Counted from the first letter of the stretch, positions 10,243-17,379 are shown. The stretch: DNA of 17,973 nucleotides from Gemmataceae bacterium (GCA_022614915.1 JAKEHV010000558.1:1-17973), one strand, 5' to 3'. Translations and numbers: made by a program. The notes: a model not told the origin generated them from the letters alone.

Positions 10243-12267
10243 GTGGATAGTCGAATCAGTCGCACCATGGCAGAATCAGCGTCACAACCATTGTCGCCTT
10301 CCCAAGGAATTCTCAGTCAACTCCGAATCCGGCTAGGCCTAGGTCTTTTGCGCTTGGCGACCGAAGGCCGCCCGTCCGAGGCGGATGCCATTGCCGTTAT
10401 CCACACCGCGCTCGATCAGGGCGTTCGTCTGCTTGATACGGCCGACTCCTATGCGCAGAGCGACGCCGATTTTCACTATGGCGAGCGATTGGCAAGTCAA
10501 GCGTTAGCATCGTGGCAGGGACCCAAGGACGAAATCAAAGTCCTTACCAAGGCCGGCCTGACTCGACCCAAAGGGCGCTGGGTCCCCAACGGCCGGCCTG
10601 AGCACTTGCGGAAGGCGGTCGACGGCAGTCTGCAAGCCCTTGGCGTCGAGCGGCTGTTCCTGTTGCAACTTCATGCCCACGATCCACGCGTGCCGTTCGA
10701 GGAAACGCTCGCAGCGCTGGCCGAATTGCAGCGCGCGGGCAAAGTCGAGCATTTGGGACTTTGCAATGTCACTCCGTTGGAGCTCAAGCAAGCGCAGCGG
10801 CACTTTCGCGTGGCCGTCGTGCAGAACGAACTGAGTGTACTCAATCGCAAGAGCGCGGCGGACGGCATGCTGGAATGGACGAGGCAGCAAGGGATACCTT
10901 TCCTGGCGCATCGGCCGCTCGGCGGCTACGCCAAGGTTGCCCGCCTTGCCAAGAACCAGGTGCTCGGACCGCTCGCCGAACGGCACAACGCGACGCCGCA
11001 CCAGGTTGCCTTGGCCGCTCTCTTAGTCGCAAGCCCGCACGTCGTGCCGCTGGTCGGCGCCACCCGCGCCGAAAGCGTGCTCTCCTCAGTGGCCGCGCTA
11101 CGCATCTCGCTAGATGTGAGCGACCGCACGGCGTTGGAAATGCGCTATTCGTTCGCCGCGGAACCCGACGCGCTCGCCTTCATCGCACCCCCTACTCCAA
11201 TCATCGAACAGAAGGCTGCCCCTTCACGCCTTCACCCTTTCACCCCTTCACCTCTTCCCGCTGCTGTGCCAGCCCAAGCCCAAACACTAAGTCCCGGCGC
11301 CGATCCCGAGGTCGTGCTTCTCACGGGCATTCAAGGGGCGGGAAAGTCGGAATTGGTCGCGACTTATCTCGAAAAGGGCTATGCACGCCTTAATCGCGAT
11401 CTGTTGGGCGGCAAGCTTGATGACCTGGTGCCGCGCCTCGTGCAGCACTTGCGCTCGGGACAAATACGCGTGGTCTTGGACAACACCTATCCAACGCGGG
11501 TATCGCGCGCTCCGGTCATCGCCGCCGCGCTGGCTCATGGCGTGCCGGTGCATTGCCGGCATCTGGCGACGCCGCTCGCTGAGGCGCACATCAACATCGT
11601 CCTGCGCACCTTGGCGAAATACGGCCGGCTTTTGGGTCCGGAAGACATGAAAGCGCTCAACAAAACCGACCCGAACCTGCCGCCGCCGCCCGCGCTTTTG
11701 CGCTACGTCGGCAGCTTCGAGCCGCCGGCGCTCGACGAAGGCTTCACGGCCTTGGAGACGATCCCGTTCGTCCGCCGGGTCAATCAGCGCCACACCGAGA
11801 AAGGCATTTTGCTCGACGTGGATGGCACGCTGCGCAAAACGCGCAGCGGCGAGATTTATCCGCGCCATCCCGACGACCAGGAGCTGTTGCCCGGTCGCCG
11901 GCCGACGCTGGCCCGTTGGATCGAAGCGGGCTATCGGCTTTTCTTCGTCTCGAACCAAAGCGGCGTCGCCTCGGGCAAGCTCGACCGGGCAGTTGCGGAA
12001 GCGGCATTTCTGCGCACCGCCGAGATTTTGCAATTGCCGGTCGCGGAGGTCGCCTATTGCCCGCACCCCGCCTTCCCCGTCGGCTGCTATTGCCGAAAAC
12101 CGATGCCTGGTCTTGGCATCTATTTGATGCAACGCCATCGGCTGGCCCGCGAACAGCTCATCGTCGTGGGCGACATGGACAGCGACGCGCAATTCGCCGC
12201 CGGATTGGGCGCACGCTACTTCGATGCGACAACGTTCTTCGCCCTCAACGGCCCGAGACCAGAATAG
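10243..12267 (+). CDS. Tri-domain fusion: aldo/keto reductase + PNK-like P-loop kinase + HAD-IIIA phosphatase (GmhB/PNKP-like, Zn-binding Cys loop)
   Basis: AKR domain aa ~20-300: LDTADSYA, VLTKAG, LLQLHAHDP (catalytic D/Y/K/H positions). A Pro-rich linker follows. The Walker A motif (LLTGIQGAGKS), VVLDNTY and the R-x3-R motif (TRVSR) match a T4-Pnk-like kinase. The HAD motif I (LLDVDGTL), plus CPHPAFPVGCYCRKPMPGLG and VVGDMDSD, match the GmhB/PNKP-type phosphatase with a Cys zinc loop. The start is 10243, with ATG 10267 as an alternative. Confidence 0.7.
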   Translation: MDSRISRTMAESASQPLSPSQGILSQLRIRLGLGLLRLATEGRPSEADAIAVIHTALDQGVRLLDTADSYAQSDADFHYGERLASQALASWQGPKDEIKVLTKAGLTRPKGRWVPNGRPEHLRKAVDGSLQALGVERLFLLQLHAHDPRVPFEETLAALAELQRAGKVEHLGLCNVTPLELKQAQRHFRVAVVQNELSVLNRKSAADGMLEWTRQQGIPFLAHRPLGGYAKVARLAKNQVLGPLAERHNATPHQVALAALLVASPHVVPLVGATRAESVLSSVAALRISLDVSDRTALEMRYSFAAEPDALAFIAPPTPIIEQKAAPSRLHPFTPSPLPAAVPAQAQTLSPGADPEVVLLTGIQGAGKSELVATYLEKGYARLNRDLLGGKLDDLVPRLVQHLRSGQIRVVLDNTYPTRVSRAPVIAAALAHGVPVHCRHLATPLAEAHINIVLRTLAKYGRLLGPEDMKALNKTDPNLPPPPALLRYVGSFEPPALDEGFTALETIPFVRRVNQRHTEKGILLDVDGTLRKTRSGEIYPRHPDDQELLPGRRPTLARWIEAGYRLFFVSNQSGVASGKLDRAVAEAAFLRTAEILQLPVAEVAYCPHPAFPVGCYCRKPMPGLGIYLMQRHRLAREQLIVVGDMDSDAQFAAGLGARYFDATTFFALNGPRPE

Positions 12268-12338
12268 ACTCGACTACACTGGCGTTCCAAACCCGATAAA
12301 CTAGTAGTGTCACACTCAGTTGAGGTAGGGTGCAAGTA

Positions 12339-12671
12339 GTGAACAAGCGCTTTTTGATGAACGCCGGCCGAACGACCAAGCAAGGACAGCAAATCAACGT
12401 GGGCAAAGATTCCGCTGAATATCAAGCAATCGTCAACACCATCACGATGCACGCGGACGATATGAAGGAAGTGGGCATTGCCGCCGGCGCCACCGTCCGC
12501 GTCCGTTCCGATAATGGCGAGGCGCTTTTTCAGTGCAAAGAAGGTAAAGTCCCTCCGGGGATGATTTTCGTGCCGTATGGACCGCCGACTTGCCGCCTCA
12601 TGGGCCAAACCACCGACGGCACCGGCATGCCCACGTCGAAGGGTTGGGAAGTCGAAGTGGAACCGGCATAG
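12339..12671 (+). CDS. fwdD: Formylmethanofuran dehydrogenase subunit D-like (stand-alone molybdopterin-dinucleotide-binding domain)
   Basis: ~110-aa protein (NAGRTTKQGQ...TDGTGMPTSKGWEVEVE) resembling FwdD/FmdD (MxVxLNTGRTxxQG...TDGTGMP). Directly upstream of fwdB. The start is GTG 12339 or GTG 12330, with GAGGT upstream. Confidence 0.65.
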   Translation: MNKRFLMNAGRTTKQGQQINVGKDSAEYQAIVNTITMHADDMKEVGIAAGATVRVRSDNGEALFQCKEGKVPPGMIFVPYGPPTCRLMGQTTDGTGMPTSKGWEVEVEPA

Positions 12672-12879
12672 GCCAGGAGTCAGAGGTTATGGAAGTGAAG
12701 CGAGACGATCTTGTGGAACAGGCGGCGTGGGAATTGATCGACACGGGACGCTACAGGCCGCGCCGGATTCGGGGAAGCTGCCTTGGCCGGGAATTGGGCT
12801 GAACGTTCGTCGTGCCGCCCGGTACGGGCGCTGAGGCGAACGTTGAACACACTCCCATCCTGCCAACTGAGAACACGCA

Positions 12880-14211
12880 ATGACGTTATCCATTGTCAAA
12901 AACGCTACCTGCACCTTTTGCGGCTGCGTGTGCGACGATATCGAACTGCACGCCGAAGGCGAGAAAATCGTCAAGACCAAAGGCGCGTGCAGTCTCGGCG
13001 AATCTTGGTTCAAGCACCACACCGCCGAGCGGCTGTACCCGGATGCCTTGATCGACGGCAAACCCGCAACGGTCGATCACGCAGTCGAAGCAGCCGCCAA
13101 TTACCTTTACGACGCGAATATGCCGCTTGTCTATGGCCTCAGCAACATCACGTGCGAGGCCCAGCGCGAAGCAGTGTTTCTGGCTGAGATCATCGGCGGC
13201 GTCATCGACAGCCACACCTCGTTATGACACGGTCCCACGGAAATCGCCGCCCAGTTGGGCGGCAAGGTCTCGTGCACTCTCGGCGAAGTCAAGAACCGGT
13301 GCGACTTCATGATCTATTGGGGCGGCAACCCGGCCGAATGCCACCCGCGCCATTTCACCAAGTACTCGCTCACGCAAAAGGGCAAGTTCATCCCGAATGG
13401 CCGCAAGGATCGCACCATGGTCCTGGTGGACATTCGCGAAACGCCGAGCGCCAAAGCCGCGGACCTGTTCCTGCAAATTCGGCCCGGCAAGGATTTCGAA
13501 GTCATCACCGCCCTGCGCGCCATCATCAAAGATCAGCCTGTCAACCCGAAAAGCGTCGCCGAAACCGGCTTGACTGTCGAGCAATTGCAAGACCTGGTCA
13601 AACAGATGAAAGCTGCTCGCTTCGGCATCATCTTTTTCGGCATGGGCCTGTCGATGACGCGCGGCAAGCACATGAACTCCGCCGGCGTCTTGATGCTCGC
13701 CGCCGAGATGAACGCTTTCACCAAGTTCGTCGCCATGCCCATGCGCGGCCACGGCAACGTCACCGGCTCCGACATGGTTATGCGCTGGAGCACCGGCTAT
13801 CCCTTCGGCGTAAATCTGTGCCGCGGGTATCCGCGTTTCAACCCCGGCGAGTACTCCACCGTGGACCTCTTGGTCCGCGGCGACAACGACGCCGCCCTCA
13901 TCCTCGGCGCCGACCCCGGCGCGACCATGCCGCAACCCGGTATCGACCACCTCGCACGCATTCCCACGATTGTGCTCGACCCCAAAGTCACCCACACCAG
14001 CCGCATTTCGCGCGTGCACATCACCACCGCCGCCACCGGCGTCAGCGCGCCCGGCACCGTCTACCGCATGGACGAGATCCCGTTGCCCTTGCGGCCCGCG
14101 CTCAAGTCGCCGTATCCGACCGATGAGGAAGTGATCCGGCGGATTCGCGAGGCGGTGGCGAAAAAACCGGCGTGGCGGCCGAGCCCGAACGGGCAGATGG
14201 CAATTGTGTGA
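12880..14211 (+). CDS. fwdB: Formylmethanofuran dehydrogenase subunit B, selenocysteine-containing (in-frame TGA at 13225-13227 read as Sec)
   Basis: N-terminal Fe-S motif (CTFCGCVCDDIEL, as in FwdB). The ORF-track pieces 12880..13227 and 13255..14211 are in the same frame. The TGA context reads ...DSHTSL-U-HGPTEIAAQLGG, which matches the conserved U/C-H-G-P-[ST] active site of the formate-dehydrogenase/FwdB group. The total length of 443 aa equals a full-length FwdB. A GC hairpin at 13246-13263 downstream of the TGA is consistent with a bacterial SECIS. Confidence 0.7.
13240..13270 (+). other. Putative bacterial SECIS element (stem gccgccc / gggcggc, loop aguu) 18 nt downstream of the UGA
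   Basis: 7-bp GC stem at 13246-13252 paired with 13257-13263, 4-nt loop. The apical loop lies ~28-31 nt from the UGA, similar to the fdhF SECIS spacing. Confidence 0.5.
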
Positions 14212-14280
14212 ATGCGTTGTAACGATTACGATACATTCGTGAATGGTTGCCAGCCGAATGCCCGATGCAGAGGGACCACT

Positions 14281-14541
14281 ATGGCAAATCCTCAGGAAAA
14301 CGGTCAGGCGAAAATCGAAGAAGCGAGCAGCAAGGCTGAGAACGCTCGACTTACGGCTTTGGTGCAACAACTTCAAAGCGAATGCGAGACGTTGCGCCGC
14401 GCCCTCGCGAAAGCCGAAGAGGAGCGCAACCTCTATCTGAAAGCGGTGTATGAGCACCATCGTGCGAGCCGCGAGTTTGAAGACGTCGACATTCCCTCCC
14501 TCGAGGCGATCTCAGCAGGTCCCGTGGAATTGATCGATTAG
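14281..14541 (+). CDS. Small charged coiled-coil hypothetical protein (first gene of the low-GC insert)
   Basis: AGAGGGA lies 6 nt upstream of ATG 14281. The sequence (AKIEEASSKAENARLTALVQQLQSECETLRRALAKAEEERNLYLKAVYEHH) is heptad-like. No family recognised. Confidence 0.45.
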   Translation: MANPQENGQAKIEEASSKAENARLTALVQQLQSECETLRRALAKAEEERNLYLKAVYEHHRASREFEDVDIPSLEAISAGPVELID

Positions 14542-14556
14542 CGCGAGGACCGCCTG

Positions 14557-14847
14557 ATGCCCGCTGTCAAGGTTCATTGGACGCGCCTATCGAAGCCGCA
14601 ATTTGACGACTTGCGCAAGCGGGCGGAAGAAAGTGAACGGCTAGCGGAATTCAGTCGCGCCCACAACGAGATTGTCTTGGCGCTCCGCGATCTCGATCAA
14701 GCGATGACGAAAGGTGAGCCTGCCTACCGGACCCGTAAGTCCGGTGGCGTGCGGACCAGCAGGAGCAACGATCTGTCCTGCGGTATTCAATGCAAAATGC
14801 GGCAAAAGTCGCCAGAAAGAACCGCTATTGATTGCTCGATGAGCTAG
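14557..14847 (+). CDS. Hypothetical protein (96 aa)
   Basis: GAGGA lies 7 nt upstream of the ATG, which is 16 nt after the previous stop. No recognisable family. Confidence 0.4.
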   Translation: MPAVKVHWTRLSKPQFDDLRKRAEESERLAEFSRAHNEIVLALRDLDQAMTKGEPAYRTRKSGGVRTSRSNDLSCGIQCKMRQKSPERTAIDCSMS

Positions 14848-14884
14848 GATGAACCACTGGCATTCTTAGAATCGGAATAAAGCC

Positions 14885-15325
14885 ATGAGTGAGCAACTTG
14901 AACAACGCTTTGACGCAGCGATGATGGATATCTATCGTCGTGCAAAGTCAGAAGCAAATTACAACGCCAGTCGCTTCTTTCAGATGCTTACCGAGCATCG
15001 GGGTCTTGAGACAGCCCGTATCCTACTGCACGCGGACACGGTCTCGGAAGGTTACACTGCTCTTTGGGAGCGTGGCCGTCTCGACCTGACCGTTGAAGCG
15101 CTTATTCACGACCATCCTGAGTTTCATCCCCTGTTCACTCAGGAGGAGCTAGGCATTGCGCGACGGCGTCTGATTGACTACAAGTATCCGCCGCTTATTG
15201 ATCCTGTCGAGCCGCTCATTGGGCGGTTCCCAAGCAACGTCCCGAATTGGACGACCGAACACGACAAACACCTTGGGCAGGCGCTAATGGAGGAAATGCG
15301 CGGCAAGAGCGGCGCCGGGGGCTGA
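14885..15325 (+). CDS. Hypothetical protein, candidate cognate partner (antitoxin-position) of the downstream PIN toxin
   Basis: Its stop (TGA 15323-15325) is separated by 1 nt from the PIN gene ATG (gctGAcATGccg), i.e. translational coupling. No family recognised from sequence. Confidence 0.45.
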   Translation: MSEQLEQRFDAAMMDIYRRAKSEANYNASRFFQMLTEHRGLETARILLHADTVSEGYTALWERGRLDLTVEALIHDHPEFHPLFTQEELGIARRRLIDYKYPPLIDPVEPLIGRFPSNVPNWTTEHDKHLGQALMEEMRGKSGAGG

Positions 15326-15326
15326 C

Positions 15327-15743
15327 ATGCCGGAGTTGTTCGCGGACACGTCGGGGTGGGGGAATTTGGTGGACCCCACGGAGCCCTACCATTCATTGGC
15401 GGCAAGCATCTACCGCACGGCGCGCCAACAAGCACACAAACTCGTCACCACGAATTACGTTTTGGCTGAACTTGTGGCGTTGCTCACCAGTCCGCTTGGC
15501 TTTCCTCGGCCAACAATCGTAACAATCATCGACGGTTTCAAGCATTCACCCTTTGTCGAAGTAGTTCATGTGGACCAGGTCTTGGATTCGGCCGCGTGGC
15601 AACTCTTGCGAAATCGACTGGATAAGGACTGGAGCCTGGTTGACTGTGCGAGCTTTGTTCTTATGCAAAACCGTGGCATCATTGAAGCACTGACCACGGA
15701 TCATCACTTCGAACAGGCAGGGTTGGTCCGTCTCTTGAAATGA
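15327..15743 (+). CDS. vapC: PIN-domain ribonuclease (VapC-like toxin)
   Basis: All four PIN acidic residues are present in the expected places: LFADTSGW (D7), VLAELVAL (E), SLVDCASF (D), TTDHHFEQAG (D). Confidence 0.7.
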   Translation: MPELFADTSGWGNLVDPTEPYHSLAASIYRTARQQAHKLVTTNYVLAELVALLTSPLGFPRPTIVTIIDGFKHSPFVEVVHVDQVLDSAAWQLLRNRLDKDWSLVDCASFVLMQNRGIIEALTTDHHFEQAGLVRLLK

Positions 15744-15753
15744 GATTTCACGC

Positions 15754-17379
15754 ATGCTGCGTATCACCGGCGGCAAAGTCTACGACCCCGCCAACAACAT
15801 CAACGGCGTCGTCCGGGATATCTGCATCGCGGATAGCCGCATCGTCGCCGGCGTCGAGGGCGGCCGAAGCATCGACGCCACCGGCATGATCGTTTTCCCC
15901 GGCGGTGTGGACATTCACACACACGTGGCCGGGGCGGCGCTCAACTTCGCGCGGGCCATGACCCCGGAAAACCAGCGCGCCGCCGCCAAGTTCACGCACA
16001 CGCCCGAGCGGCGCATGGGCATCGGCGGGCCCACGCCCACCACCTTCGCGACCGGCTACCTTTACGCCGGCATGGGCTACACCACCGTCGTCGAAGCCGC
16101 AGTCCCCGTCCTGTCCGCCAAGCACACGCACGAAGAGCTGCGCGATACACCCATCGTCGACAAGGCGTCCTGCCTGTTGATGGCCAATAACGAAATCGTG
16201 CTCGACCTTCTAGAAGCCGGCGACGTCGAGCAGGCCAAGCACGTCGTCGCCTGGCTCGTCTGGGCGGCGAAGGCCTACGGCGTCAAAGCAGTCAACCCCG
16301 GCGGCGTCACGGCCTGGAAGTGGGGCAAGGACGCCAAGATCATGTCCGAACCGGTCTATGGCTACAACAAAGTGACGCCGGCAAAGATTGTTTCCAGTTT
16401 GGCCAGGATCATCGATCAACTTGGTTTGCCACATCCTCTACACCTGCACTGCAACAACCTGGGCGCGCCGGGCAACGTCGCCACCACGCTCGAAACCATG
16501 AAGGTGCTCGAAGGCAACCGGGCACACATGGCACATTTGCAGTTCCATAGCTATGGTGGCGACGACTGGCACTCGATGCGCTCCGAGGCGACGCAGATCG
16601 CCGATTACTTTAACGCCCATCCCAACCTCACTGCCGACGCCGGCGCGGTCCTCTTCGGCAACGCGGTCACCATCACCGCCGACGGGCCGTGGCAGCACTT
16701 GCTCTATCAGCTCACCGGCCGCAAGTGGGGCAACCTCGACGTCGAAAACGAAACCGGCTGCGGCATCGTGCCCTACACCTACAAGGGCAGCAATCTTGTC
16801 AACGCGGTGCAGTGGGCCGTCGGCTTGGAGCTCTTGCTCTTGATCAAGGACCCGTGGCGCATCTTTTTGACCACGGACCATCCCAACGGCGCGTGCTTCT
16901 GGCGCTATCCGGAGATCATACACCTCTTGATGAACGCCGACGCCCGCAATGAGCGCGTCCGCAAGCTGCCGGAAAAGGCGCTCAAGCGCATCGTTCTCGC
17001 CGACCTAGACCGGCAATACACGCTGTCGGAAATCGCCATCATCACTTCCGCGGGCCCGGCGCGAGCGCTCGGACTGAAGCAAAAGGGCCACCTCGGCGTG
17101 GGCGCCGACGCCGACGTGACCATCTACAACGAAAACCCGGACGGCGAACTCATGTTCCGCTATCCGCGCTACGTCATCAAAGCGGGCGAAGTCGTCGTCG
17201 AGGAGGGCGACATCCGCGCCGGGCACGATGGCCGCGAGTTCGTCGTCAAGCCGGCGTTCGACGAGAAGATAGAAGAGTTTCTGCGACCGGTGTTCCAGCA
17301 GTATTACACGATGTCGTTCGACAACTACCCGGTTGAGCTGGAACGCATACACAGATTAGAGATCGCGGCTTGCCATTAG
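15754..17379 (+). CDS. fwdA: Formylmethanofuran dehydrogenase subunit A (amidohydrolase-superfamily FwdA/FhcA)
   Basis: N-terminus (MLRITGGKVYDPANNINGVVRDICIADSRIVAGVEGGRSIDATGMIVFPGGVDIHTHVAGA) is collinear with FwdA (M..I.NG.VYDP.NGI.GE..DI.I.DGKI......IDA.G..VMPGGVD.HSHIAG). ~541 aa. Confidence 0.8.
   Translation: MLRITGGKVYDPANNINGVVRDICIADSRIVAGVEGGRSIDATGMIVFPGGVDIHTHVAGAALNFARAMTPENQRAAAKFTHTPERRMGIGGPTPTTFATGYLYAGMGYTTVVEAAVPVLSAKHTHEELRDTPIVDKASCLLMANNEIVLDLLEAGDVEQAKHVVAWLVWAAKAYGVKAVNPGGVTAWKWGKDAKIMSEPVYGYNKVTPAKIVSSLARIIDQLGLPHPLHLHCNNLGAPGNVATTLETMKVLEGNRAHMAHLQFHSYGGDDWHSMRSEATQIADYFNAHPNLTADAGAVLFGNAVTITADGPWQHLLYQLTGRKWGNLDVENETGCGIVPYTYKGSNLVNAVQWAVGLELLLLIKDPWRIFLTTDHPNGACFWRYPEIIHLLMNADARNERVRKLPEKALKRIVLADLDRQYTLSEIAIITSAGPARALGLKQKGHLGVGADADVTIYNENPDGELMFRYPRYVIKAGEVVVEEGDIRAGHDGREFVVKPAFDEKIEEFLRPVFQQYYTMSFDNYPVELERIHRLEIAACH

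What the first reader, a model, noticed from the sequence alone, without database searches (positions are those of the whole stretch)
14212..15753. Low-GC four-gene insertion carrying a PIN toxin, wedged between fwdB and fwdA
Between fwdB (stop 14211) and fwdA (start 15754) lies ~1.5 kb with visibly lower GC (~48-52% versus ~62% in the flanks). It encodes four small same-strand ORFs with good SD spacing: a coiled-coil protein, two unknowns, and a bona fide PIN nuclease with all four catalytic acids. The 146-aa protein upstream of the PIN is translationally coupled (TGAcATG) but is not a recognisable VapB/Phd/AbrB/RHH antitoxin. The first two genes are unexplained. An addiction module or small defence island inserted inside a respiratory/C1 operon is unusual. 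The architecture (coiled-coil + two unknowns + PIN) may represent an undescribed multi-component system.
Basis: partly seen in the sequence, partly recalled or inferred. Interest (0 to 1): 0.6.

Follow-up and report, generated by a model that had tools for sequence, protein, structure and literature searches.

The report
Toxin-antitoxin stack inside fwd operon
The 1.5 kb between fwdB and fwdA is not one four-gene system: it holds a working-looking VapC/PIN toxin-antitoxin pair, whose antitoxin has a new front domain, plus the decayed remains of other small modules, at an operon junction that many related Planctomycetes fill with different toxin-antitoxin or defence genes.

Summary
The four same-strand ORFs between fwdB (stop 14211) and fwdA (start 15754) are real. 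The region has the lowest GC in the window, but at 54.9% vs 60.1%, not 48-52%.

**ORF3-PIN (14885-15743).** This is a vapBC-type type II toxin-antitoxin pair.
- The PIN is closest to M. tuberculosis VapC20, and D7/E48/D106/D125 are conserved.
- ORF3's last ~40 residues are homologous to the tails of 86-aa antitoxins that precede 70%-identical PINs in other phyla.
- ORF3's 103-aa helical N-domain has no Pfam, PDB or fold match.
- In relatives the same N-domain carries a different tail and is followed by a PemK/MazF toxin.

**ORF1-ORF2.** This is a separate, rare two-gene module that also occurs outside fwd operons. In this window ORF2 is a truncated out-of-frame chimera. A 245-bp deletion made it and also removed most of a fifth, 65-aa gene.

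**The junction.** Across 66 non-redundant related genomes the fwdB-fwdA spacer is under 200 bp in 40 and 443-2032 bp in 26. The long spacers hold unrelated cargo, including BrnT/A, PemK, DUF433/DUF5615, Uma2, AAA+DUF4276 and DUF4058.

**Verdict.** This is an operon-internal toxin-antitoxin/defence hotspot, not a multi-component system. It is a new variant of a known kind, of moderate interest.

The parts
12880..14211 (+). fwdB (left flank of the hotspot). It carries an in-frame TGA at 13225-13227, a probable selenocysteine codon.
   Evidence: TIGR03129 matches both halves. TGA is conserved in 64 of 65 loci and is TGC in one.
14212..14280 (+). 5' spacer of the cargo. The apparent upstream extension of ORF1 (ATG 14212) is not conserved.
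   Evidence: In L001/L002 the ATG is ACG and a 1-nt indel shifts the frame. A TACATT/TACAAT-like motif recurs just after fwdB in several cargo-bearing loci, which is only a lead for an internal promoter.
14281..14541 (+). ORF1, 86 aa and acidic (pI 4.8). It is a coiled-coil protein with a conserved C-terminal FEDVDIxxLExxSAGPVEL motif. It is the inferred antitoxin or partner of ORF2.
   Evidence: Homologs lie in the same gap in L007, L009, L033, L035, L038, L088 and L176/177. It is always immediately upstream of ORF2 where ORF2 exists. An analogous 85-87-aa coiled-coil gene lies 15 nt upstream of a distant ORF2 homolog outside fwd. pI.
14557..14847 (+). ORF2-delta, a truncated out-of-frame chimera and probable pseudogene. 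Only codons 1-64 belong to the ORF2 family (101-aa basic proteins).
   Evidence: 245-bp deletion relative to L001/L002, junction 14749/14750. The family profile matches only positions 1-64 of the 96-aa form. Family alignments are A3 and A5.
14751..14831 (+). Relic 3' end of a 65-aa gene that is intact in L001/L002. It reads ...ADQQEQRSVLRYSMQNAAKVARKNRY*, an end like the PemK-type antitoxin tail (tail B).
   Evidence: alignment; 65-aa gene called in L002; tail-B consensus REQEAVLRYSMKQAAKVAKENPY.
14885..15193 (+). ORF3 N-terminal domain (aa 1-103). It is an all-helical domain of a large unannotated family. Its role as a dimerisation, regulatory or scaffold domain of the antitoxin is inferred.
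15194..15325 (+). ORF3 C-terminal tail (aa 104-146, 'tail A': IDPVEPLIGRFPSNVPNWTTEHDKHLGQALMEEMRGK) plus the stop codon. It is the inferred PIN-neutralising segment.
   Evidence: 63% identical (E 5e-18) to the tail of the 86-aa antitoxins of homologous PINs in L171 and L173. The tail type tracks the toxin type. Low pLDDT with a predicted helix at 122-141.
15327..15743 (+). PIN-domain toxin, VapC-like and closest to VapC20. It starts 1 nt after the ORF3 stop and ends 10 nt before the fwdA ATG.
   Evidence: PF01850. 5wzf VapC20 at E 1.5e-11. Conserved acidic quartet. 2063 homologs, one of them named VapC by its source.
15754..17379 (+). fwdA (right flank of the hotspot).
   Evidence: TIGR03121, 696 bits.

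Best explanation
The fwdB-fwdA spacer in this Gemmataceae-like planctomycete is a variable cargo site. It holds a stack of independent small modules, all co-oriented with the operon.

**Module 1: ORF3 + PIN, intact.** This is a vapBC-type type II toxin-antitoxin pair.
- The PIN is a Mg2+-dependent endoribonuclease of the VapC kind. Its nearest solved relative, VapC20, is a 23S rRNA-specific endonuclease.
- ORF3 is its antitoxin. Its C-terminal ~40 residues bind and block the PIN (inferred). Its 103-aa helical N-domain is a previously unannotated module that replaces the usual RHH/AbrB/Phd domain.
- The N-domain's role in dimerisation and/or autoregulation is inferred, not shown.
- The same N-domain carries a different tail and is paired with a PemK/MazF toxin in relatives. 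So the toxin and its cognate tail have been swapped as a cassette at this site.

**Module 2: ORF1 + ORF2, decayed.**
- This is a rare bicistronic pair of an acidic 86-aa coiled-coil protein and a basic 101-aa protein. It is probably a second toxin-antitoxin pair.
- A 245-bp deletion truncated ORF2, the putative toxin. It also removed most of a 65-aa orphan antitoxin-like gene.

**How the site behaves.**
- No terminator separates the cargo from fwdA, so read-through with the operon is plausible.
- The cargo probably persists through addiction and turns over by recombination through the highly conserved fwdB and fwdA flanks (inferred).
For: **Flanks and ORFs**
-.

**PIN identity**
- Pfam match, conserved D7/E48/D106/D125, VapC20 5wzf at E 1.5e-11.
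- VapC20 is a PIN toxin targeting RNAs essential for translation (PMC5175351, title and abstract as listed). The 5wzf molecule name is '23S rRNA-specific endonuclease VapC20'.

**Antitoxin assignment**
- TGAcATG coupling.
- ORF3(tail A)-PIN adjacency with a 1-nt gap holds in the independent lineages L088, L175 and L176/177; in L091 the predicted gap is 28 nt.
- 70%-identical PINs in a KSB1 bacterium and another genome are preceded by 86-aa proteins. These share only the tail with ORF3.
- In L034, L038, L093, L094 and L127 the same N-domain (74-80% identical) has tail B and is followed by PemK, PF02452 at E 2e-10.
- Toxin-first decay with an intact antitoxin is seen in L087 and L174.

**Independence of the modules**
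-.
- An ORF1-like + ORF2-like pair with the same 15-nt spacing lies outside fwd in L178.

**ORF2 truncation**
-.

**Hotspot**
- 26 of 66 non-redundant loci have at least 400 bp at fwdB-fwdA, against 2 of 73 at fwdA-fwdC.
- The cargo is diverse: BrnT + CopG antitoxin, PemK, DUF433 + DUF5615, Uma2, AAA_21 + DUF4276/DUF3226, DUF6932, DUF4058, ParE-like, HTH_3.

**Composition and transcription signals**
- Lower GC and GC3 in the cargo.
- No + strand terminator-like site in the gap.
Against: - No experiment shows toxicity or neutralisation.
- The N-domain has no detectable HTH, RHH or AbrB features. It is mildly acidic (pI 5.7), and no operator-like palindrome lies upstream of ORF1 or ORF3. Its assumed DNA-binding or autoregulatory role is therefore unsupported.
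- ORF2's assignment as a toxin is weak. Only 2 of 35 family members hit ParE_toxin, and below threshold (E 0.016). hhalign against RelE and ParE was not significant. The AF2 model is poor (pLDDT 60).
- All 13 tail-bearing ORF3 lineages examined sit at this one junction, the PIN-paired (tail-A) ones 7-10 nt from the fwdA start and the PemK-paired ones about 25-30 nt. That could mean some functional tie to fwd rather than pure selfish residence.
- No integrase, transposase or flanking repeats explain how cargo arrives.
Confidence: 0.75

Rival explanations
1. One reading: the four genes (coiled-coil + two unknowns + PIN) form one undescribed multi-component defence or addiction system.
For: - All four genes are on the same strand, tightly spaced and share a lower GC.
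- ORF1 is found next to ORF3-toxin modules in L038, L088 and L176/177.
Against: - The components assort independently: ORF3-PIN without ORF1/2 in L175 and L091; ORF1-ORF2 without ORF3/PIN in L009, L033 and L035; ORF1 without ORF2, ORF3 or PIN in L007.
- An ORF1-like/ORF2-like pair occurs elsewhere in a genome, outside fwd.
- ORF2 is truncated here while ORF3-PIN is intact.
- Homologous PINs work with a single 86-aa partner.
- No PADLOC model matches.
Confidence: 0.05
2. The small genes, especially ORF1 and ORF3-PIN, are ancestral accessory or regulatory components of the Fwd complex or its mRNA. For example, the PIN might process the fwd transcript upstream of fwdA.
For: - ORF3-toxin modules sit at this junction in 13 of 13 diverged lineages examined. 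The PIN stop lies 7-10 nt before the fwdA ATG.
- ORF1 recurs in at least 8 lineages at this site.
- The genes are co-oriented with the operon and no terminator intervenes.
Against: - They are absent from 40 of 66 loci, where fwdB and fwdA are 0-183 bp apart.
- The site is otherwise filled with unrelated toxin-antitoxin or defence genes.
- The toxin can be PIN or PemK.
- Toxin genes decay at this site in L087, L174 and in the window's ORF2.
- GC3 is about 20 points below that of the fwd genes.
- Close PIN homologs with the same antitoxin tail lie in unrelated contexts in other phyla.
Confidence: 0.08
3. A single recent horizontal insertion (a genomic islet) specific to this strain.
For: - The gap has the lowest GC in the window and low GC3.
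- The closest species-level relatives in GTDB (L007, L008; FwdA 88% identical) lack ORF3-PIN.
Against: - ORF3-PIN homologs at only 56-82% identity occupy the identical position in other lineages.
- The content is a mosaic with internal deletions and relics.
- There are no mobility genes or boundary repeats.
- This fits long residence with turnover better than one recent event.
Confidence: 0.1

Closest known systems
VapBC type II toxin-antitoxin systems (PIN toxin + upstream antitoxin), nearest solved toxin M. tuberculosis VapC20 (PDB 5wzf)
   Same: - PIN fold signature with four conserved acidic residues.
- Antitoxin gene immediately upstream with stop and start 1 nt apart.
- The antitoxin C-terminal tail is homologous to the tails of short antitoxins that precede 70%-identical PINs.
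   Different: - NCBIfam has no model for this PIN subfamily.
- The pair sits inside an enzyme operon.
Combinatorial or 'hyperpromiscuous' antitoxin domains (Panacea/PanA; NetFlax network; PMC8832971, PMC10440598)
   Same: One antitoxin-associated domain is found with unrelated toxin families. Here these are PIN and PemK/MazF, plus many tail-less and N-extended forms.
   Different: - Here the variable C-terminal tail tracks the toxin, not the shared domain. The shared domain therefore looks like a scaffold rather than the neutraliser.
- There is no DUF4065/Panacea match.
- Only two toxin partners were seen.
PemIK/MazEF modules
   Same: Relatives carry N-domain + tail B followed by a PF02452 toxin at the same junction. 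The window keeps a relic of a tail-B end at 14751-14831.
   Different: No PemK gene remains in this window.
Defence/toxin-antitoxin integration hotspots between conserved core genes
   Same: - A conserved junction carries highly variable, low-GC cargo in about 40% of genomes.
- The cargo includes AAA_21 + DUF4276, Uma2 and BrnTA modules.
   Different: - The hotspot lies inside a multi-subunit enzyme operon, between two subunit genes.
- The cargo is small (0.4-2 kb) and always co-oriented with the operon among the Pfam-supported genes.
- It has no integrase and no att-like repeats.

Membership tests
VapBC type II toxin-antitoxin | Toxin is a PIN domain with the conserved acidic quartet. | tested here: met
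   PF01850 at 28.1 bits, above the 23.6 cut-off. D7/E48/D106/D125 are at least 99% conserved. VapC20 at E 1.5e-11.
VapBC type II toxin-antitoxin | Small antitoxin gene immediately upstream, in the same operon, overlapping or abutting the toxin gene. | tested here: met
   TGAcATG at 15323-15329. The same 1-nt spacing is seen in L088, L175, L176, L171 and L173.
VapBC type II toxin-antitoxin | The antitoxin C-terminal region is the toxin-specific neutralising segment. | tested here: inconclusive
   The evidence is comparative only. Tail A is shared (63% identity) with otherwise unrelated antitoxins of homologous PINs. Tail B goes with PemK. Binding itself was not testable.
VapBC type II toxin-antitoxin | The antitoxin N-terminal domain belongs to a known DNA-binding class (AbrB, RHH, Phd/YefM, HTH). 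| tested here: not met
   [not shown]
VapBC type II toxin-antitoxin | The toxin arrests growth and the antitoxin rescues it. | not testable with these tools
   Needs expression assays.
   Genes occur in independent combinations. ORF2 is truncated here.
Fwd accessory subunits | Present in fwd operons generally, with host-like composition. | tested here: not met
   40 of 66 loci have a spacer under 200 bp. GC3 is 59-65% against 81-84%.
RelE/ParE toxins (for ORF2) | Significant profile match to RelE/ParE families. | tested here: inconclusive
   ParE_toxin matches are sub-threshold, in 2 of 35 members (E 0.016). hhalign probabilities are under 1%. PDB profile search found nothing. The AF2 model is unreliable.
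Mobile genomic island | Integrase or transposase genes and boundary repeats. | tested here: not met
   No such ORFs in the gap. No direct repeats.

The most novel reading that the evidence does not exclude
The ORF3-toxin module is not just a selfish passenger. It may be functionally wired into the fwd operon. It is fixed directly upstream of fwdA in every tail-bearing lineage seen (13 of 13), with the PIN stop 7-10 nt from the fwdA start. This could couple translation or mRNA stability of fwdA/fwdC to toxin-antitoxin state, so that C1 oxidation shuts down under stress or phage attack. ORF3's N-domain would then be a new, tail-swappable antitoxin scaffold.
Probability: 0.1. Interest if true: 0.7.

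Novelty: new variant of a known kind. Interest (0 to 1): 0.45.

Why it matters
- **A new antitoxin architecture.** About 2000 'hypothetical' proteins share the ORF3 N-domain, which has no Pfam family and no structural relative. Here it is fused to interchangeable toxin-specific tails (PIN or PemK). This is a clean natural example of how type II antitoxins are assembled from modules.
- **An unusual hotspot.** A subunit-gene junction inside a conserved C1-metabolism operon acts as a lineage-wide docking site for toxin-antitoxin and defence cargo. About 40% of sampled genomes are occupied, with at least 10 different cargo types, and no integrase is present. That raises questions about how such cargo moves and whether it perturbs or regulates the operon.
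- **Practical value.** The findings give annotation for many unannotated planctomycete genes. They also show that 'ORF2' in this window is a deletion relic.

Tried and rejected
- **Family libraries.** PADLOC and PHROGs scans of the four proteins found nothing meaningful. NCBIfam found nothing for any of the four.
- **RNA.** An Rfam scan of the whole window gave no hits, including no SECIS family.
- **ORF3 N-domain.**
  - PDB sequence-profile search gave no hit.
  - Foldseek against BFVD gave nothing.
  - The afdb50 library was unavailable.
- **ORF2.**
  - The word-index search found only 4 relatives.
  - The exhaustive HMM search found 36 clusters.
  - Pfam on all members gave only sub-threshold ParE hits.
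- **Regulatory and boundary signals.** A search for operators or att sites found one weak inverted repeat inside ORF1 and no direct repeats. The promoter/terminator scan found nothing above shuffled expectation.
- **Literature.** No paper links fwd operons of Planctomycetes with toxin-antitoxin modules.
- **Rejected start codon.** The longer ORF1 start at 14212 is not conserved in L001/L002.

Full report
**Observation**

The window comes from a Gemmataceae-like planctomycete. Identical or near-identical loci are L003/L006 and L001/L002/L004/L005. Relatives found with FwdA are almost all Planctomycetota MAGs.

- FwdD is at 12330-12671.
- FwdB is at 12880-14211.
- FwdA is at 15754-17379. TIGR03129 and TIGR03121 support FwdB and FwdA.

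Four + strand ORFs fill the 1542-bp gap. The gap has the lowest GC of any same-size window: 54.9% against a mean of 60.1% (sd 1.9). GC3 is 59-65% in the ORFs against 81-84% in fwdB and fwdA.

**ORF3-PIN is a vapBC-type pair**

The PIN (15327-15743) passes Pfam's PIN threshold. D7, E48, D106 and D125 are at least 99% conserved among 120 homologs. Its best solved relative is M. tuberculosis VapC20, labelled a 23S rRNA-specific endonuclease (5wzf, E 1.5e-11; VapC biology in PMC5175351).

ORF3 (14885-15325) ends 1 nt before the PIN start, reading TGAcATG. It belongs to a family of about 1990 proteins. All are 'hypothetical' and none has a Pfam domain.

Reading the hits shows a modular build:
- **N-domain.** Residues 1-103 are conserved.
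- **Tail A.** IDPVExFIGAFPSDVPDWxxxHDKYLGQAL, found in the 146-aa forms.
- **Tail B.** REQEAVLRYSMKQAAKVAKENPY, found in the 131-aa forms.
- **No tail.** Forms of about 104 aa.

The tail tracks the toxin. Tail-A forms are followed by the PIN in the window, L088, L091, L175 and L176/177. Tail-B forms are followed by a PemK/MazF toxin (PF02452) in L034, L038, L093, L094 and L127.

The decisive evidence comes from other phyla:
- PINs 70% identical to this one lie in unrelated contexts in a KSB1 bacterium (L171) and in another genome (L173).
- Each is preceded, with the same 1-nt spacing, by an 86-aa protein.
- That protein's N-terminus is unrelated to ORF3. Its last 40 residues are 63% identical to ORF3's tail (E 5e-18).

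So the tail is the PIN-specific module, and ORF3 is a VapB-like antitoxin with a swapped front domain.

**ORF1-ORF2 is a separate, decayed module**

The window carries a 245-bp deletion relative to L001/L002, with its junction at 14749/14750. In those strains:
- ORF2 is 101 aa.
- It is followed by a 65-aa gene that ends in a tail-B-like sequence.

In the window only ORF2 codons 1-64 remain. They are read out of frame into the relic of the 65-aa gene (14751-14831).

The ORF2 family is rare, with 36 clusters at 50% identity among 1.84 billion representatives. Its conserved C-terminal third is exactly what the window lacks.

ORF1 is acidic with a coiled coil and a conserved FEDVDIxxLExxSAGPVEL end. 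It lies immediately upstream of every ORF2 seen. It also survives without ORF2 in L007, L038, L088 and L176/177.

A distant ORF2 homolog outside any fwd operon (L178) is preceded at the same 15-nt spacing by an 85-87-aa coiled-coil protein. Three observations fit an antitoxin-toxin pair:
- The pI values are 4.8 for ORF1 and 9.4 for full-length ORF2.
- The downstream gene is the one lost in relatives.
- The pair recurs in an unrelated context.

ORF2's fold and activity remain unresolved.

**The junction is a hotspot**

In 66 non-redundant loci the fwdB-fwdA spacer is under 200 bp in 40 and at least 443 bp in 26. By contrast, 2 of 73 loci exceed 400 bp at fwdA-fwdC.

The long spacers carry unrelated cargo, all of it on the operon strand among the genes with Pfam support:
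- BrnT + CopG antitoxin
- PemK
- DUF433 + DUF5615
- Uma2 endonuclease
- AAA_21 ATPase + DUF4276/DUF3226
- DUF6932
- DUF4058
- ParE-like
- BrnT-like + HTH_3

The cargo GC is below the flank GC in every case. No integrase and no boundary repeats were found.

All 13 tail-bearing ORF3 lineages examined sit at this junction. The PIN stop lies 7-10 nt before the fwdA start. Toxin genes decay in place: the PIN is truncated in L087 and L174, and ORF2 is truncated in the window.

**Mechanism**

*Shown:*
- the gene order and coupling;
- the PIN catalytic signature;
- the co-variation of tail and toxin;
- the independence and decay of the modules;
- the variability of the site.

*Inferred:*
- the PIN cleaves a translation RNA;
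- the ORF3 tail occludes the PIN active site;
- the N-domain dimerises and/or regulates;
- cargo is exchanged by recombination through the conserved fwdB and fwdA flanks;
- the modules are transcribed with the operon, since no terminator-like site lies on the + strand.

**Comparison and novelty**

The pair works like VapBC and meets the toxin and gene-organisation criteria. It fails the 'known antitoxin DNA-binding domain' criterion.

It resembles the combinatorial antitoxin-domain theme of Panacea and NetFlax (PMC8832971, PMC10440598). Here, though, the shared domain is not the part that tracks the toxin.

The four-gene system idea and the Fwd-accessory-subunit idea both fail their tests. I rate the finding a new variant of a known kind. 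Interest is 0.45. Toxin-antitoxin modules are common, but the unannotated antitoxin domain with swappable tails and the operon-internal hotspot are worth a short follow-up.

Noticed in passing
window 13225-13227 (and 13246-13263): fwdB contains an in-frame TGA at the ...DSHTSL-U-HGP... position. It is TGA in 64 of 65 related loci and TGC (Cys) in L035. A perfect 7-bp hairpin, GCCGCCC-AGTT-GGGCGGC, starts 18 nt downstream. FwdB is therefore probably a selenoprotein, and gene callers split it into 115-aa and 318-aa ORFs. No Rfam SECIS family matched.
   Followed up: partly
window ~12689-12802 (+), fwdD-fwdB spacer: A conserved micro-ORF, MEVKRDDLVEQAAWELIDTGRYRPRRIRGSCLGRELG. Its C-terminal motif AWExIExGR(Y/F)xPRRxxGSxxGRxLG is shared with the 51-54-aa genes called at the same place in L087, L174 and L176 (tblastn E down to 2e-11). 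Function unknown.
   Followed up: partly
window 10243-12671 vs L001 7072-15462: The fwd operon is oriented differently relative to its neighbours in near-identical strains. In the window/L003 the AKR-PNK fusion gene is on the + strand directly upstream of fwdD. In L001/L002 it is on the - strand directly downstream of fwdC, and a sulfatase gene lies upstream of fwdD. This is either an inversion of the whole operon block or an assembly artefact.
   Followed up: no
window ~14320-14420 (inside ORF1): A dense cluster of substitutions separates the window from L001/L002 in the ORF1 coiled-coil (ORF1 is 91% identical at protein level). The surrounding DNA is almost identical. This may be a recombination patch or diversifying selection.
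   Followed up: no
L058 and L070, just upstream of fwdA: A relic reading ...MKQAAEVALENP (a tail-B-like antitoxin end) lies directly before fwdA, after an AAA_21 + DUF4276-like cargo. It suggests that an earlier ORF3/PemK-type module was replaced.
   Followed up: no
L105, L136, L137, L139, L140 (metagenome loci): Stand-alone ORF3-type N-domain genes are followed by a 152-171-aa protein. That protein contains a similar ...SGYTALVEMGLQEYAFEAVILRHPDEFS... motif and looks like a tandem paralog. Other stand-alone copies sit next to GmrSD_N/HNH genes in L112, L114, L135 and L170.
   Followed up: partly
window 14232-14237, and L008, L019, L031, L034, L058, L067 just after the fwdB stop: A TACAAT/TACATT motif recurs a few dozen bases after the fwdB stop in cargo-bearing loci. 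It may be a -10 element of cargo promoters. The sigma-70 consensus scan did not support this.
   Followed up: no
window 10243-12267 (+): A 674-aa fusion protein combining an aldo/keto reductase, an AAA_33 kinase-like domain and a PNK3P/HAD phosphatase. It is conserved next to the fwd operon in L001-L003.
   Followed up: no
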